From NCBI RefSeq assembly GCF_009914755.1, contig NC_060931.1: a stretch of 64,000 nt of DNA. One strand, 5' to 3'. The notes below the pieces were generated by a model that did no database searches, had not been told where the DNA came from, and was given only the letters and a program-made list of their open reading frames with translations. The stretch comes from the human T2T-CHM13v2.0 reference genome, Homo sapiens. Every line of letters starts with the position of its first letter. Position 1 is the stretch's first letter. A program made the translations under genes and the position numbers. Of the stretch, positions 32,687-38,239 are shown in pieces.

Positions 32687-32951
32687 GCATTGATAGATGA
32701 ATCATCCCAATGGGATTCTAAGCTTCAGCTCAAATTGAAGGGAGTTGCTGAGCAGTGGTTAGTGTCTAACCTAAACATCTTTAAGACTAACCTACCTTCT
32801 TCATATCTTTTGTTTTTGGACAGTTTCATTAGTAGCATTGATGAAACATAGTTTACCAGCAATAAGGACCTGAATAATTAGAGATGAAATCGTTCATCTC
32901 CAGGTGATGCCACAGGAGCTGTAGTTCTGTTCTTTCTCTGCCCCTGTTATC
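32687..32951 (+). repeat. Left copy of ~265 bp host duplication flanking HERV-K
   Basis: Matches 37968-38239 with about 7 substitutions and 2 small indels (counted by eye). Confidence 0.95.
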
Positions 32952-33929
32952 TGTGGGGAAAAGAAAGAGAGATCAGACTGTTACAGTGTCTATGTAGAAA
33001 GAAGTAGACATGAGAGACTCCATTTTGTTCTGTACTAAGAAAAATTCTTTTGCCTTGAGATGCTGTTAATCTGTAACCCTACCCCCAACCCTGTGCTCGT
33101 AGAAACAAGTGCTGTGTGCTGTGTCGACTCAAGGTTTAATGGATTTAGGGCTATGTAGGATGTGCTTTGTTAAACAAATGCTTGAAGGCAGAATGCTTGT
33201 TAAAAGTCATCACCACTCCTTAATCTCAAGTACCAAGAGACACAAAACACTGCAGAAGGCCGCAGGGACCTCTCCCTAGGAAAGCCAGGTATTGTCCAAG
33301 GTTTCTCCCCATGTGATAGTCTGAAATATGGCCTCGTGGGAAGGGAAAGACCTGACCATCCCCCAGCCCGCCACCTGTAAAGGGTCTGTGCTGAGGAGGA
33401 TTAGTAAAAGAAGAAGGCCTCTTTGCAGTTGAGATAAGAGGAAGGCATCTGTCTCCTGCTCGTCCCTGGGCAATGGAATGTCTCAGTGTAAAACCTGATT
33501 GTATATTCCATCTACTGAGATAGGAGAAAACCGCCTTAGGGCTGGAGGTGAGACATGCTGGCGGCAATACTGCTCTTTAAGGCATTGAGGTGTTTACATA
33601 TGTGCACATCAAAAGCACAGCACCTTTTTCTTTACCTTGTTTATGATGCAGAGACATTTGTTCACATGTTTTGCTGCTGACCCTCTCTCCACTATTACCC
33701 TGTTGTCCTGCCACATCCCCCTCTCCGAGATGGTAGAGGTAATGATCAATAAATACTGAGGGAACTCGGAGACCAGTGCTGGCACGGGTCCTCCGTATGC
33801 TGAGCGCTGGTCCCCTGGGCCCACTTTTCTTTCTCTGTACTTTGTCTCTGTGTCTCTTTGTTTTCTCAAGTCTCTCGTTCCACCTGACGAGAAACAGCCA
33901 CAGGTGTGGAGGGGCAGGCCACCCCTTCA
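32952..33929 (+). mobile_element. HERV-K(HML-2) complete LTR (LTR5B/5A type)
   Basis: TGTGGGGAAAAGAAAGAGAGATCAG ... GGCCACCCCTTCA, 978 bp, AATAAA 33748-33753; 3' end is the older non-LTR5_Hs form. Confidence 0.95.
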
Positions 33930-33931
33930 TC

Positions 33932-33949
33932 TGGCGCCCAACCTGGGGC
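33932..33949 (+). other. tRNA-Lys(CUU) primer binding site
   Basis: TGGCGCCCAACCTGGGGC, 17/18 match to TGGCGCCCAACGTGGGGC. Confidence 0.9.
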
Positions 33950-34930
33950 TAAGGGATCTATTCTATTTATTTGCGCTGACTGAATTTTTTCTTCCACTAA
34001 TTTAATTTCTTTTGTTGCCTCTGGGGTTAATATTCTTTTAAGTCTGGTTCTCCTCTTAAGATAGAGAGCAAATTTGACATGGCATAAGTAGGAATGCCTA
34101 AAGTTGGCCGAATCCAATTAATATCGCCTAGCAATTTTTGAAAATCATTTAATGTTTTTAATGTCTTTTTTTATTTCTATTTTTTGTGGCTTAATTTTTC
34201 TATTTTCTATCTGCATCCCTACATAATGAAAAGGAGTAGAGGTTTGAATCTTATCAGATACTATTGCCAGTCCTGCGTTGGCAACCTCTGCTTACAGAAA
34301 TGTGTAAGTCAATTAATTTGTCTTGTTTCTGTAGCACATAAAATATCATCAGCATAATGAATGATATAACAGTCTGAAAACTTGTCTCTAACTGGTTGAA
34401 GAGCTCGACCTATGAAAGTCTGACAAATAGTTGGACTATTAAGCATTCCCTGAGGTAACACTTTCCACTGAAACCTGGTGGCTGGTTATTATTTATGGCT
34501 GGTATAGTAAAGGCAAATTTTTCACAATCCTGCTCCGCCAGAGGAATGGTAAAAACGTAGTCCTTCAGATCAATTATAATTAAAGGCCCGGCGTTTGGGA
34601 TCATGGCCGGAGAGGGCAACCCGGTTTGGATAGGTCGCATGGGTTGAATTACGGCATTTATGGCCCTTAAGTCCGTTAACATACGCCATCTGCTGGATCT
34701 TTTCTGAATTACAAACACAGGAGAATTCCAAGGCGAGAATGAAGGCTCAATATGTCCCTTTTCTAATTGTTCATTTGCTAATAAATGTAAAGCCTCCAGT
34801 TTTTATTTTGGTAGCGGCCACTGATTTACCAATACGGGTTTTTCTGTTTTCCAACTTAATGGAATGGTAAGTTTAGGAGGCTCTGCAGTGGCCACCCCTA
34901 AAAAGGATACCCTATTCCTTTTCTTTCTTG
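33944..34930 (-). pseudogene. pol: HML-2 pol 5' part (RT), truncated at RIDPLAP
   Basis: [31 protein letters not shown] for YIDD; frameshifts. Confidence 0.9.
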
Positions 34931-35850
34931 ATTTCTTTCAGTCTCAATTGGGACTTTAATGCCATTTTCATTTTTTCCTAGTCCTTTTCCTGGTATATAT
35001 CCCATCTTAGTCATGATTTTTTGACTCGTGGGGCTGTATAATGGAGCGGGCATAGTGATTTCCGCACCCCATTGTTGTAATAAATCTCGACCCCGCATAT
35101 TAACAGGAATTGAAGTAATCATTGGCTGAACAGTACTTTCTTGATTATCTGGCCCTAAACAGTGTAAAATCATAGTACTTTGATGCACTTCTGAGGCTGT
35201 TCCTATGCCGAGAAGTCCTGTAACAGCCTTTTGTTTAGGCCAATTTTTTGGCCACTGATTTAAAGCAATGATAGAGACATCTGCTCTAGTGTCTACTAAC
35301 CCTTCAAACTGTTTTCCTTGAATAATGGCCTTACACACAGGTCTGCTGTCTGAGACCTGACTTGCCCAATATGCGGCCTTTCCTGTCGGATCAGTGCTTC
35401 CAAACCCTCCTGTTTTTATCTGTTTCCAACCATAATATAAGGCAGGAGTAATAATTGAGCAATCCTGTCTCCTGGACTGGCACTCCAAGGAATTGAAGAG
35501 CTAATAACCAATTGAATTTCGCCTTTATAGTCTGAATCAACCATACCACTATGAATTTGAACTCCCTTTAGATTTAGACTTGAGCTTCCTAAGATTAGTC
35601 CTACAGTCCCTTCAGGCAGTGGGCCATATATCCCTGTGGGGTTTTTTTGTGGGGGTTCCCCTGGAAGCAGAGAGACTGCTTGTATAGTACATAAATCTAC
35701 TGCTGCACTGCCACTTGTGGTGGGGGACAATTGTTGTATTGTGGTAACTGGCTCATTCCCTGAGGCACTTGGGACAGTGGGGGTTGTTGTCCCTGAAATC
35801 CCTGAGGAGCAAAGGGCTGAATTGGGAATGCCCCAGTTTTTTGTGGGGCC
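34898..35850 (-). pseudogene. pro: HML-2 pro (dUTPase-protease-G-patch), disrupted
   Basis: GSAAVDL and VDSDYKGEI motifs; active site DTG changed to DTR; KMGYIPGKGLGK; frameshifted. Confidence 0.9.
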
Positions 35851-37786
35851 TGAGGCGGGCCCCTCTTCTCATTTCCCAACAATGGTTGCCCATTTCTATC
35901 AAATTTAGAATGACATTGACCAGCCCAGTGTTTTCCTTTTCGACATCTTGGACATAAGTCAGGTGGCTCTTTATCTGTTGTTGTAGTAGCTTGAATAGTT
36001 ATATTTTGTTTATTTGAGACTGGGCAATTCTTTTTTAGATGACCAACTTGACCACAATTATAACATTTCCCCCCAAATGTTCTAACTTGTCTTCCTAAAG
36101 CAACTCCCATTATTGCTTGAGCCATAAACATAGCTTTATGCATAGCTCCTCCTCCATCACAGGCTTTTACATACTCAGATTACATTTGATTCTGTGGGAA
36201 CCTTACCTTTTAATGGCTTAATGGCTGATTGACACTCAGGATTGGCGTTTTCATATGCCATCAACTCCACTATGACCTTACAAGCATTCTCATCGGTAAT
36301 TGACTTTTGAGCAACATCTTGGAGCCTTGCCACAAAATCAGGGTAGGGCTCTTTAGAGCCTTGTCTTATTGTATTGAATGAGGGGCAGGCGGTTCCTGGG
36401 TCTTGGATTTTTTCCGAGGCCCTAAGGCAGATAGCTCTAACTTGCTCAATGGCCTCATTTTGCATTAACACTTGTTGACTAGTAGTGCTTCAATTTTGAC
36501 CTGTTCCTAATAGTTGATCTGCATCTATGTTAACTGGAGGATTGGCAGCCCTGTTTCTTCAGACCGACCTGTTGTTGTGCCCCATCAATCCACCAAGTCT
36601 TAAATTGTTAAAATTGAGAGGGTGAGAGAGACAATTTGGCCAGAACCTCCCAATCATAAGGAATGAGTCTATGTCCATGAGCAATGGAATCTAATAATGT
36701 CCTCATATAAGGGGAGTTGGGTCCATACTGTTTTACTCCCTCTTTCATATCTTTTAGCATTTTTATAGAAAAAGACTCATATCTGGCCTCAGCTAGGGGA
36801 GGCTCTCCCTCTTGGGCCCCTTCTCCAGGTGGTATTGGTTCTAATATTACTGGGAATTGCCATGCCTCAATATCTCTTTGTTTTCTTGCCTCATCAATAA
36901 TTTTATGTAATACACTACCCTGCTCACTAGGTGGTGCTGTAGGATTAAGTCTCATAGTGGGTGGCTGAGGGTATGGCGCCCTGTCCTGTGGGGCTGGGAA
37001 CATTCCTGGCTGTCCATACTGATTTTCCGGGGGTGGCCGACACTTAAGTTCGGCTGGCAGCCAGTATTGATAGGCTACTGGCAGTTGGGTCTTATTTTCT
37101 ACCGGCTGATATTGTGGATACTGTATTTGGATTGGCATTGCCGTGACAGAGACTCTATCTTTCTCTATTTGATATTCTCTTGGGGTTTGTACTTGCCTAA
37201 CCTGCATTTGAGGTTGTAATGTTACAGGCATCTGAACTGCTGGAAGAGGAGTTGGCCCTCGTGGTTTAGACTCTGATGGCCCTGCTAATTCTGGACCTTT
37301 TTCTTCTAATTTTAACGTTTCAGGATATATCACCTCCTGTAATTGATTATAGTCAACATTTTGCATTGACTGAGCCATTACCGGCTCTGCTACATACTCA
37401 CAATGTAAACTTTCCGTTCCTTTCCGGGATTTTATCTCTGCCTCTTCTTTACAATCTATTAAACAGCTTTCAGGGGCATCAGAAACTGAAACACTATCTT
37501 CTTCTGTTTGAAACGGTTCTAAAGCTACTTTAATAATGACCCAGTCATTCCATACTGTAAGTGGGATGATTTTACCCTCCCTACTTGCTTGTTTTAATTC
37601 TTTGCCAATTTTTTCCCAGTCTTTTAGATATAAAGTTCCCTGTTCTAGAAACCATGGGCAAAATTTTCTATTGTTTGAAATAGTGTGATTAGATTTTTTT
37701 GTAGAAACTCTAACTCCCCCCCTTTTTTTTTAAAGAATTTTAATAGAATTGAGATGAGAGGCATATTTACTTTTAGTTTGCCCCAT
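35697..37786 (-). pseudogene. gag: HML-2 gag, disrupted
   Basis: ATGGGGCAAACTAAAAGT start; MHR-like IRQGSKEPYPDFVARL; zinc knuckles CYNCGQVGHLKKNC and CPRCRKGKHWAGQC; split into several ORFs. Confidence 0.92.
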
Positions 37787-37967
37787 TGTTACCCTGGCTT
37801 TTTCCAAGCGCGCAAGCTTACCGCAAGGCTGACTGTAGACGTACTTGGGAATCTCTCATTGACTTGTCCTCAATGACCACGCTCGAGCGTACCTTCACCC
37901 TAGAGAAAAGCACCCACGTTGGGCACCAGGTGAAGGGGTGGCCTGCCCCTCCACACCTGTGGATGGG

Positions 37968-38239
37968 GCATTGATAGATGAATCATCCCAATGGGATTCT
38001 AAGCTTCAGTTCAAATTGAAGGGGGTTGCTGAGCAGTGGTTAGTGTCTAACCTAAACATCTTTAAGACTAACCTACCTTCTTCATATCTTTTGTTTTTGG
38101 ACAGTTTCATTACTAGCATTGATGAAACATAGTTTACCAGCAATAAGGACCTGAAATATAACTAGAGATGAAATCGTTCATCTCCAGGTGATGCCACAGG
38201 AGCTGTGGTTCTATTCTATCTTTCTCTGCCCCTCTTATC
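37968..38239 (+). repeat. Right copy of host duplication flanking HERV-K
   Basis: Direct repeat of 32687-32951. Confidence 0.95.

What the first reader, a model, noticed from the sequence alone, without database searches (positions are those of the whole stretch)
32687..38239. ~265-bp target duplication instead of a 5-6 bp TSD: one-ended integration signature
Seen: 32687-32951 ends precisely at the LTR TG. It recurs at 37968-38239, starting 2-3 nt after the ragged U5 stub, about 3 percent diverged. Known: HML-2 integrase makes 5-6 bp TSDs, and experimental retroviral DNAs with one defective end integrate with large host duplications. Inference: integrase joined the good U3 end and host repair joined the other. 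The divergence between copies dates the event. Recombination between them could excise the whole 5.3 kb and mimic an empty site.
Basis: partly seen in the sequence, partly recalled or inferred. Interest (0 to 1): 0.7.

Follow-up and report, generated by a model that had tools for sequence, protein, structure and literature searches.

The report
Inside-out HERV-K insertion with 265-bp target duplication
An old HERV-K copy next to SSBP1 is a fossil of a botched reverse transcription: one LTR joined to a back-to-front gag-pro-pol piece, apparently inserted by only one proper end, so that 265 bases of host DNA were duplicated instead of the usual 5-6.

Summary
Window 32687-32951 recurs at 37968-38239 (258 of 265 aligned bases identical, two small indels). 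These are the only two copies in the assembly, and they abut the two ends of HML-2 locus 7q34 (ERVK-15).

A complete LTR plus an 18-nt primer-binding site (PBS) lies on the + strand. It is followed by RT-protease-dUTPase-gag-leader-PBS and a 32-35 nt U5 stub, all on the - strand.

- The LTR-linked PBS is the exact complement of the tRNA-Lys(CUU) 3' end, bar one base.
- The inverted, leader-linked PBS is the 19-nt form that most HML-2 proviruses carry.
- The PBS/RT junction sits on a 7-8 nt match between the tRNA 3' end and pol.
- A much younger, unrelated HML-2 locus (7q22.2) has the identical junction and the same PBS asymmetry.

Best reading: plus-strand strong-stop DNA mis-primed on genomic RNA in pol, giving a one-LTR cDNA with only a U3 end fit for integrase. 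The other end was joined by host repair, which created the 265-bp duplication.

The loci and the "opposite-strand LTR" are in print. I found neither the duplication nor this mechanism there. Outgroup empty sites could not be checked.

The parts
32687..32951 (.). Left copy (F1) of the duplicated host target, 265 bp, ending directly at the LTR's TG
32952..33929 (+). Complete HML-2 LTR (U3-R-U5), from TG to CA, old (non-LTR5Hs) type. About 86% identical over its full length to the LTRs of a young full-length provirus
33930..33949 (+). 2-nt spacer (TC) plus 18-nt PBS of the tRNA type. It is the complement of the tRNA-Lys(CUU) 3' end with 1 mismatch. [quoted passage not shown]
33943..33949 (.). Junction overlap. 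These 7 nt are shared between the PBS 3' end and the reverse complement of pol (GCCCCAC in intact copies; 8 nt if tRNA A58 is counted)
33950..37786 (-). Inverted coding region, with stops and frameshifts. Parts: RT, truncated in the thumb/connection region (RVT_1 at 34309-34802); protease and G-patch (34898-35500); dUTPase (35416-35868); Gag NC zinc fingers (35697-36179); CA C-terminal domain (36175-36489); MA to CA N-terminal domain (36608-37729). The gag ATG is at 37786-37784
37787..37909 (-). Inverted 5' leader between PBS and gag
37910..37930 (-). Inverted 19-nt PBS of the genome type, as in most HML-2 proviruses, plus a 2-nt spacer
37931..37962 (-). Inverted U5 stub: the last 32 nt of U5, 32 of 32 identical to 33898-33929 (35 nt with one mismatch, to 37965). 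With the PBS it forms the 53-nt inverted repeat 33895-33947 / 37913-37965
37963..37967 (.). 5-nt filler (ATGGG) at the aberrant junction. Read together with the next 3 nt, it resembles a 7-nt snap-back copy of the opposite U5 strand with one extra T, overlapping the first 3 nt (GCA) of F2. This is suggestive only
   Evidence: my reading of the letters
37968..38239 (.). Right copy (F2) of the duplicated host target, 272 bp, continuous with the downstream flank

Best explanation
The element is a dead-end by-product of HML-2 reverse transcription that was nevertheless inserted into the germline.

Step 1 (inferred from anatomy): plus-strand strong-stop DNA (U3-R-U5 plus an 18-nt PBS copied from the tRNA-Lys primer) did not make the normal second strand transfer. 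Its 3' end (..GTGGGGC) annealed to a 7-8 nt tRNA-like motif (A)GCCCCAC in the RT region of plus-sense genomic RNA. Reverse transcriptase extended it back through pro, gag, leader and the genomic PBS, and 32-35 nt into U5.

Step 2 (inferred): second-strand synthesis gave a linear DNA with one authentic U3 terminus and one end lacking any LTR terminus.

Step 3 (inferred, by analogy with experiments): integrase inserted only the U3 end. Host polymerase and end-joining attached the other end 265 bp 'upstream' on the target, so that 265 bp of host DNA became a direct repeat around the 5.0-kb insert.

Shown directly: the anatomy, the two different PBS types, the microhomology, the recurrence at a second independent locus, the uniqueness of the repeat, and its exact abutment to both ends.
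For: 1. One complete LTR lies on the + strand. Everything internal lies on the - strand (gag, dUTPase, protease, G-patch, RT by Pfam) and ends in PBS and a U5 stub.

2. The LTR is followed by spacer plus PBS and then directly by reverse-complement pol. [quoted passage not shown]

3. PBS asymmetry.
- The LTR-linked PBS is the 18-nt complement of the tRNA-Lys(CUU) 3' end. It is exact at 7q22.2 and has 1 mismatch at 7q34.
- The leader-linked inverted PBS is the 19-nt form in both loci.
- Among 28 other HML-2 loci with a leader, 22 carry the 19-nt form, 4 the exact tRNA form, 1 a decayed 18-nt form and 1 is deleted.
- In 9 of 9 loci tested, ARAGORN calls a tRNA-Lys(ctt) gene ending in the 15-nt motif.
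- Only strong-stop DNA copies its PBS from the tRNA. Only a copy of genomic RNA must carry the genomic form.
- At 7q34 the U5 parts of the two arms are 32 of 32 identical, while the PBS parts differ at 3 of 19 columns.

4. Intact HML-2 pol reads ..TTAGCCCCACTCC.. at the junction in 9 of 11 comparison loci. One more carries a substitution inside the motif, and the eleventh is 7q22.2 itself. The tRNA gene reads ..CGAGCCCCACG... That gives 7-8 nt of overlap.

5. Recurrence. A genome-wide pattern search (up to 3 mismatches) finds this junction at exactly 2 places, 7q34 and 7q22.2. The 7q22.2 copy is 98% identical to a young provirus, against 86-91% for 7q34, so the two events were independent. At 7q22.2 the inverted part ends exactly 2 nt beyond the PBS. 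That is where minus-sense synthesis on an RNase H-trimmed genome should stop.

6. The U3 end is joined precisely at TG at both loci.

7. The 265-bp repeat is unique in the genome. It abuts both ends and has the polarity of a target-site duplication.

8. Experiments with ASLV and HIV-1 show that DNAs with one bad end are inserted by integrase at the good end and by host enzymes at the other. They show duplications of hundreds to thousands of bp, truncated viral ends, short homologies and appended viral sequence of either strand (PMC5041404, passages).
Against: No empty site from an outgroup could be examined, so the single-copy pre-integration state of the 265 bp is inferred, not shown.

GCCCCAC occurs at 3 sites in the sense strand of a full-length HML-2, one of them an 8-mer. 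Reuse of the same site in two events is therefore only about a 1-in-3 coincidence among microhomology sites.

7q22.2 has no long flank duplication within the 10 kb examined. The duplication is thus not a constant feature of this class, and what happened to the target there is unresolved.

Why synthesis stopped 32-35 nt into U5 at 7q34 is not explained by the simple model.

The F1/F2 divergence (2.7%) is on the low side if the locus is truly shared with rhesus.

The snap-back reading of the 5-nt filler needs one extra base.

The step in which integrase acted on the U3 end is an analogy; no tool can test it.
Confidence: 0.7

Rival explanations
1. The PBS/pol junction was made in the nucleus by host repair, not by reverse transcriptase. 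This could be microhomology-mediated end joining, or a host polymerase extending the unintegrated 3' end on another viral DNA. Two viral DNA pieces would have been joined in inverted orientation during a one-ended integration.
For: In the experimental aberrant proviruses, the aberrant end can be joined to additional viral DNA in either orientation, and host polymerases may copy either viral strand after priming on short homology (PMC5041404). The junction carries 7-8 nt of microhomology. The fixed 3' end of strong-stop DNA would select the same microhomology repeatedly.
Against: The inverted PBS is the genomic 19-nt form at both loci. A plus-strand DNA template would have given the tRNA form, so the template looks like genomic RNA, which host repair polymerases are not expected to copy over 4 kb. 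At 7q22.2 the inverted part ends exactly at the PBS boundary. That is a reverse-transcription landmark, not a random break. The same nucleotide-exact junction arose in two independent events.
Confidence: 0.15
2. A normal two-LTR provirus with a 5-6 bp duplication integrated first. A later host rearrangement then produced the present form. Candidates are an inversion with deletion, or replication-based template switching of the FoSTeS/MMBIR type. In print the LTR is called a '3'-LTR annotated on the opposite strand'.
For: Microhomology junctions and small templated insertions are also hallmarks of replication-based rearrangements. Schmitt 2013 (PMC3590776, Table 2 footnote) and Flockerzi 2008 (PMC2525661) describe the LTR simply as lying on the opposite strand or in opposite orientation.
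Against: The LTR is followed by a PBS on its U5 side and by host DNA on its U3 side, so it is not an inverted 3' LTR. Duplicating a resolved provirus's U5-PBS would give two PBS copies of the same type, yet they differ in the type-defining positions at both loci. This includes the human-specific 7q22.2, where post-insertion change is negligible. A template-switch path that re-enters at the start of F would have to continue through the intact provirus, but F2 runs straight into downstream host DNA without even a solo LTR. The identical junction arose twice in unrelated copies.
Confidence: 0.08
3. The 265-bp tandem duplication pre-dated the ERV, which then inserted between the copies. Alternatively, the ERV is an autointegration product (an inversion made by integrase attacking its own DNA).
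For: None specific. Autointegration is a known source of inverted retroviral DNA (recalled knowledge; no paper seen).
Against: The insert fills the space between the copies exactly and has no short duplication of its own. The unit has no other copy in the genome. Autointegration junctions lie at LTR termini, whereas here the junction lies after the PBS.
Confidence: 0.03

Closest known systems
Experimental one-ended ('aberrant') integrations of ASLV vectors with a mutated end, and of HIV-1 under suboptimal integrase inhibitors or with weak integrase mutants (Hughes laboratory; PMC5041404, passages read; the ASLV papers it cites were not held)
   Same: One viral end with a normal, precise junction. 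The other end is truncated or abnormal. Direct host duplications of hundreds to thousands of bp replace the 4-6 bp repeat. There are short homologies and appended viral sequence of either strand at the bad junction.
   Different: Here the event is natural, germline and at least as old as the human-orangutan ancestor. The bad end was not engineered or drug-induced. It follows from the structure of the cDNA itself, which has no second LTR terminus at all.
Aberrant or deferred second-strand transfer and tRNA(Lys-3) read-through in defective HIV-1 proviruses (PMC12657518, passages read)
   Same: [quoted passage not shown] The 15q locus noticed in passing (LTR plus about 65 nt of tRNA-Lys complement) is the direct HML-2 counterpart of the read-through class.
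   Different: In HIV-1 the strand lands further along the minus-strand DNA and gives a same-orientation deletion with two LTRs. Here it lands on a plus-sense template, giving an inverted internal region and a single LTR. The word 'inver' does not occur in that paper.
HML-2 locus 7q22.2 (ERVK-14, human-specific)
   Same: It has an identical LTR-PBS/reverse-complement-RT junction, the same PBS asymmetry, the same extent of gag-pro-pol, and a precise U3 junction.
   Different: It comes from a young LTR5Hs-type virus (98% identical to a K108-like copy, against 86-91% for 7q34). It has no U5 stub, since it ends 2 nt past the PBS. It has no long flank duplication within the 10 kb examined.
Inversions in defective HIV-1 proviruses, and autointegration circles
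   Same: Internal viral sequence is inverted relative to an LTR. Inversions made up 1 of 78 to 2 of 78 proviruses in PMC9278108 (passages read).
   Different: No mechanism tied to the PBS is given in the passages seen. Autointegration junctions sit at LTR ends with a short internal duplication (recalled), which is not the case here.

Membership tests
HERV-K(HML-2) provirus | LTR5-family LTR bounded by TG...CA | tested here: met
   32952-33929 aligns over 979 nt at 86% to both LTRs of a full-length HML-2. TG and CA ends were read
HERV-K(HML-2) provirus | PBS for tRNA-Lys(CUU) | tested here: met
   There are two PBS copies. The tRNA-Lys(ctt) 3' end was verified in 9 of 9 loci
HERV-K(HML-2) provirus | Betaretrovirus-like gag, dUTPase-protease with G-patch, and RT | tested here: met
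   Pfam hits: Gag_p10, Gag_p24, Gag_p24_C, zf-CCHC_5, dUTPase, RVP, G-patch, RVT_1. Seven of 8 frames scanned had hits
HERV-K(HML-2) provirus | Two LTRs in the same orientation as the internal genes | tested here: not met
   There is one LTR, on the strand opposite to the genes. RNase H, integrase, env and a second LTR are absent
HERV-K(HML-2) provirus | 5-6 bp target-site duplication | tested here: not met
   The flanks share 265 bp, not 5-6 bp
One-ended integrase plus host-repair integration | One viral end intact and joined precisely at the LTR terminus | tested here: met
   Host ...TTATC is followed directly by the TG of U3
One-ended integrase plus host-repair integration | Other viral end truncated or abnormal | tested here: met
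   The other end is an inverted 32-35 nt U5 stub with no LTR terminus
One-ended integrase plus host-repair integration | Long direct duplication (or deletion) of the target next to the aberrant end | tested here: met
   The duplication is 265/272 bp, unique in the genome and direct
One-ended integrase plus host-repair integration | Short homology or templated filler at the aberrant junction | tested here: inconclusive
   There is a 5-nt filler. A possible 7-nt snap-back copy and a 3-nt overlap need one extra base
One-ended integrase plus host-repair integration | Single-copy target at the empty site | not testable with these tools
   No primate genomes other than the window's own assembly are held
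Aberrant plus-strand (second) strand transfer product | Junction at the 3' end of strong-stop DNA, with a tRNA-templated PBS | tested here: met
Aberrant plus-strand (second) strand transfer product | Landing on minus-strand DNA, giving a same-orientation deletion (the HIV-1 class) | tested here: not met
   The downstream sequence is the reverse complement of pol-gag, so the template was plus-sense
Autointegration inversion | Junctions at LTR termini | tested here: not met
   The junction lies 20 nt beyond the LTR, after the PBS

The most novel reading that the evidence does not exclude
HML-2 reverse transcription has a sequence-programmed side reaction. Strong-stop plus DNA primes on genomic RNA at an 8-nt tRNA-Lys-like motif in RT. 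This yields single-LTR 'inside-out' cDNAs that reach the germline by one-ended integration.

7q34 (old virus, 265-bp target duplication) and 7q22.2 (young virus) would be two independent fossils of this class. The LTR-plus-tRNA insertion on 15q would be a third strong-stop-derived fossil.

If so, ERV catalogues contain an unrecognised class of insertions that record both reverse-transcription errors and host-repair-mediated integration in primate germ cells.
Probability: 0.55. Interest if true: 0.7.

Novelty: new variant of a known kind. Interest (0 to 1): 0.62.

Why it matters
One-ended integration with long host duplications is known from engineered vectors and drug-treated HIV-1 cultures. 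A fixed germline example would show that it also happens in nature and can be inherited.

The locus also preserves the molecule that was integrated. It is strong-stop DNA still carrying its tRNA-templated PBS, fused to a copy of genomic RNA. This gives nucleotide-level evidence for a mis-priming route that produces inverted, single-LTR proviruses, a class for which the passages I read in the HIV-1 papers give no mechanism.

There are three practical consequences.
- The 7q34 and 7q22.2 loci are annotated as proviruses with a '3' LTR on the opposite strand'. They should not be dated or interpreted as rearranged two-LTR proviruses.
- Reads called 'antisense' at 7q34 run in the sense direction of its LTR.
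- The two 265-bp repeats are a substrate for a 5.28-kb deletion that would look like an empty site.

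Tried and rejected
1. Inferring the pre-integration state of 7q22.2 from paralogous repeats. The left flank is unique (1 match). The right flank is an old dispersed repeat (40 scored of 2320 candidates). In 9 of 10 pairwise comparisons of five paralogues, the family's homology starts 7-22 nt before the junction-equivalent position. A small host deletion is therefore possible but cannot be told from a ragged repeat end. This stays unresolved.

2. A genome-wide survey of tRNA-type Lys PBS contexts for further aberrant junctions. 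Only the 30 exact 15-mer hits were inspected.

4. Reus et al. 2001 (the first description of K(OLDAC004979)) and Oh et al. 2008 were not held. What they say about the structure or about duplication sizes is unseen.

Among the passages I opened from 6 papers and the titles and abstract openings of the other listed hits, none described the 265-bp duplication, the PBS asymmetry or a strong-stop origin for these loci. Supplements were not opened.

6. Rejected readings: a pre-existing duplication, autointegration, an inverted 3' LTR, and a copy relationship between 7q22.2 and 7q34 (reasons under the rivals).

7. No structure or complex prediction was relevant.

Full report
**1. The observation**

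Window 32687-32951 and 37968-38239 are direct repeats. The repeat finder reports 188 nt at 98% and 64 nt at 94%, with spacing 5281-5284. In the alignment, 258 of 265 aligned positions are identical (5 transitions, 2 transversions), with one 3-bp and one 4-bp indel. K2P is 0.027 and the 95% CI of p is 1.1-5.4%.

The unit has exactly two matches in the 3.1-Gb assembly, both of them these copies. It is therefore not a dispersed repeat.

The left copy ends at the base before the LTR's TG. The right copy begins 5 nt after the last unambiguous viral base. The flanks share no 5-6 bp duplication.

**2. What lies between the copies**

The insert (32952-37967) is the catalogued HML-2 locus 7q34, K(OLDAC004979)/ERVK-15. 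Subramanian 2011 (PMC3228705, Table 1) gives orientation (-), oldest carrier orangutan, age N/A because the LTR is unpaired.

It is not a truncated provirus with a ragged 3' end. Its layout is as follows.
- 32952-33929 is one complete LTR on the + strand.
- 33930-33949 is a 2-nt spacer and an 18-nt PBS, also on the + strand.
- From 33950 everything is on the - strand: RT broken off in its C-terminal part, G-patch, protease, dUTPase, Gag NC, CA and MA (Pfam, 7 of 8 frames with hits; ORF list).
- Then follow the 5' leader, a second PBS and the last 32-35 nt of U5.

U5 plus PBS thus forms a 53-nt inverted repeat at the two ends of the inverted block. RNase H, integrase, env and a second LTR are absent.

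Two papers noted only that the LTR is 'in opposite orientation' or 'annotated on the opposite strand', the latter calling it a 3' LTR (PMC2525661; PMC3590776, Table 2 footnote). It cannot be a 3' LTR. Its U3 side touches host DNA and its U5 side is followed by a PBS.

**3. The internal junction**

In 9 of 11 other HML-2 loci compared, pol reads ..GATCCCTTAGCCCCACTCCAAC.. at this point. One more has a substitution inside the motif, and the eleventh is the 7q22.2 locus discussed in section 5. At 7q34 the sequence switches after GCCCCA into the reverse complement of PBS-spacer-U5.

The overlap GCCCCAC is the start of the 18-nt 3' end of tRNA-Lys(CUU). The gene reads ..TTCGAGCCCCACGTTGGGCG. In 9 of 9 loci tested, ARAGORN calls tRNA-Lys(ctt) ending in the motif. 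Counting the A before it (position 58 of the tRNA by the standard numbering, recalled), the match to pol is 8 nt.

In a full-length HML-2, GCCCCAC occurs at three sense-strand sites, and the junction uses one of them.

**4. Two kinds of PBS**

This is the most discriminating result. Among 28 other HML-2 loci with a leader:
- 22 carry a 19-nt PBS (TGGTGCCCAACGTGGAGGC in young copies, ..GGGTGC in old ones);
- 4 carry the exact 18-nt tRNA complement (TGGCGCCCAACGTGGGGC);
- 1 carries a decayed 18-nt form;
- 1 is deleted.

In established retrovirology, plus-strand strong-stop DNA copies its PBS from the tRNA primer, while minus-strand DNA copies its PBS from the genomic RNA.

At 7q34 the LTR-linked PBS is the tRNA form (one private mismatch) and the inverted, leader-linked PBS is the 19-nt genomic form. 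The U5 parts of the two arms are 32 of 32 identical, whereas the PBS parts differ at 3 of 19 columns. A duplication of an already resolved provirus would have given two PBS copies of one kind.

If each copy drew its type at random with the observed frequencies (5 of 28 and 22 of 28), the arrangement 'tRNA form left, genomic form right' at both loci would have a probability of about 0.02. This is my arithmetic.

The genomic form on the inverted side also implies that the plus-sense template was RNA, because plus-strand DNA would carry the tRNA form.

**5. A second, independent case**

The same junction, nucleotide for nucleotide, occurs at 7q22.2 (ERVK-14, 'human specific' in PMC3228705 Table 1). 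A pattern search of the whole assembly with up to 3 mismatches finds it at these two places only.

The 7q22.2 element is collinear with 7q34 from the LTR start to the inverted PBS. Its LTR is 97.6-97.9% and its internal part 98.3% identical to a young K108-like provirus. The corresponding figures for 7q34 are 86% and 88-91.5%. The two therefore come from viruses of different age and are not copies of each other.

7q22.2 shows the same PBS asymmetry: the exact tRNA form next to the LTR and the 19-nt young form next to the leader. Its U3 junction is precise. Its inverted part ends 2 nt beyond the PBS with no U5 at all. That is where synthesis on a genomic RNA whose R-U5 had been removed by RNase H is expected to stop (established model; inference).

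No direct flank repeat of 25 nt or more exists in the 10 kb examined there.

**6. Mechanism proposed**

(a) Strong-stop plus DNA annealed by its last 7-8 nt to the tRNA-like motif in pol of still uncopied (or co-packaged) genomic RNA. RT extended it to the trimmed 5' end of the RNA.

(b) Second-strand synthesis made the DNA double-stranded, giving a correct U3 terminus at one end only.

(c) Integrase inserted that end.

(d) Host enzymes attached the other end.

For step (d), the published model says that the free 3' end is extended by host polymerases on short homologies. These polymerases sometimes copy either viral strand first and then nearby host DNA, and joining on one side of the integrase site gives a deletion and on the other a duplication 'hundreds or thousands of bp long' (PMC5041404).

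At 7q34 the aberrant junction reads U5 stub, ATGGG, then F2. Read with the first three bases of F2, the filler resembles a 7-nt snap-back copy of the opposite U5 strand at a natural palindrome, with one extra T, and overlaps F2 by GCA. That fits the model but is weak evidence.

The anatomy is shown directly. Steps (a) to (d) are inferred.

**7. Rivals**

- Host end-joining or a host polymerase made the internal junction. This is not excluded. It is disfavoured by the genomic-type inverted PBS, by the landmark end at 7q22.2 and by the exact recurrence.
- A conventional provirus was rearranged after integration. This is disfavoured by the PBS asymmetry, by F2 running straight into downstream DNA without a solo LTR, and by the recurrence.
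- A pre-existing duplication, or autointegration. These are disfavoured by the exact abutment, the lack of any short duplication, and the junction lying beyond the LTR end.

**8. Dating**

K2P of 0.027 gives about 11-13.5 My at 1.0-1.2e-9 per site per year. These rates are recalled, and the CI is roughly 4.5-27 My.

This is compatible with presence in orangutan. It is on the low side if the locus is also in rhesus, as Flockerzi 2008 states. Gene conversion between the repeats or chance could account for that. With 7 substitutions the estimate is little more than an order of magnitude.

**9. What is known and what is new**

Already in print:
- the loci and the odd LTR orientation;
- one-ended integration;
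- aberrant second-strand transfer with tRNA read-through in HIV-1 (PMC12657518);
- inversions in defective HIV-1 proviruses, reported as rare and with no mechanism in the passages seen (PMC9278108).

Ten full-text searches were run. In the passages I opened from 6 papers, and in the titles and abstract openings of the other listed hits, none described the 265-bp duplication, the PBS asymmetry or a strong-stop origin of 7q34 and 7q22.2. Reus 2001 and the ASLV papers were not held, supplements were not opened, and subscription journals are largely outside the library.

I therefore rate this a new variant of a known kind.

**10. Limits**

- No other primate genome or pangenome was available, so the empty-site test and the deletion-allele test remain to be done.
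- The broader survey for further members stopped.

Noticed in passing
L018:1772-6674 (G000:C7:106062272-106067174; HML-2 7q22.2, ERVK-14): A second, young and independent HML-2 element has the identical LTR-PBS/inverted-RT junction and the same tRNA-type versus genome-type PBS asymmetry. Its inverted part ends 2 nt past the PBS. No long flank repeat was found, and the fate of its target site is unresolved.
   Followed up: partly
L087 (G000:C15:93545500-93553500), reverse strand positions 3202-4228: An HML-2 LTR with a precise TG start is followed by the tRNA-type PBS, and then by the complement of the tRNA-Lys(CUU) body (62 of 73 gene positions matched at 94%). It looks like plus-strand strong-stop DNA that read through into the primer tRNA and was inserted on its own. 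No short or long flank duplication was seen within about 3 kb.
   Followed up: partly
Loci L020-L048 and L056-L085: HML-2 proviruses are dimorphic at the PBS. Most keep a 19-nt form that is an imperfect tRNA-Lys complement, and a minority carry the exact 18-nt tRNA copy. The persistence of the imperfect form through old and young lineages is unexpected if half of all integrations should revert to the tRNA copy. Selection, for example escape from PBS-directed silencing in germline or embryonic cells, is a speculation from recalled literature.
   Followed up: no
window 32952-33929 relative to SSBP1 (20147-32314, + strand): The LTR points the same way as SSBP1 and into the inverted gag-pol. RNA-seq reads called 'antisense' to this provirus and attributed to SSBP1 read-through (PMC4379556) would be sense to the LTR, so either source could produce antisense gag-pol RNA.
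   Followed up: no
window 32687-38239 (literature): The published ages disagree. Flockerzi 2008 lists the locus as present in rhesus, orangutan, chimpanzee and human. Subramanian 2011 gives orangutan as the oldest carrier. Schmitt 2013 also places SSBP1 'downstream' of the locus (ERVK-15 '1.6 kb upstream'), whereas in this window the element lies about 640 bp beyond the SSBP1 3' end.
   Followed up: no
L018:6673-6880: The right flank of the 7q22.2 element is an old dispersed repeat (72-78% identical to many copies). It starts about 7-22 nt inside the family's usual terminus, which is compatible with a small host deletion at that insertion.
   Followed up: partly
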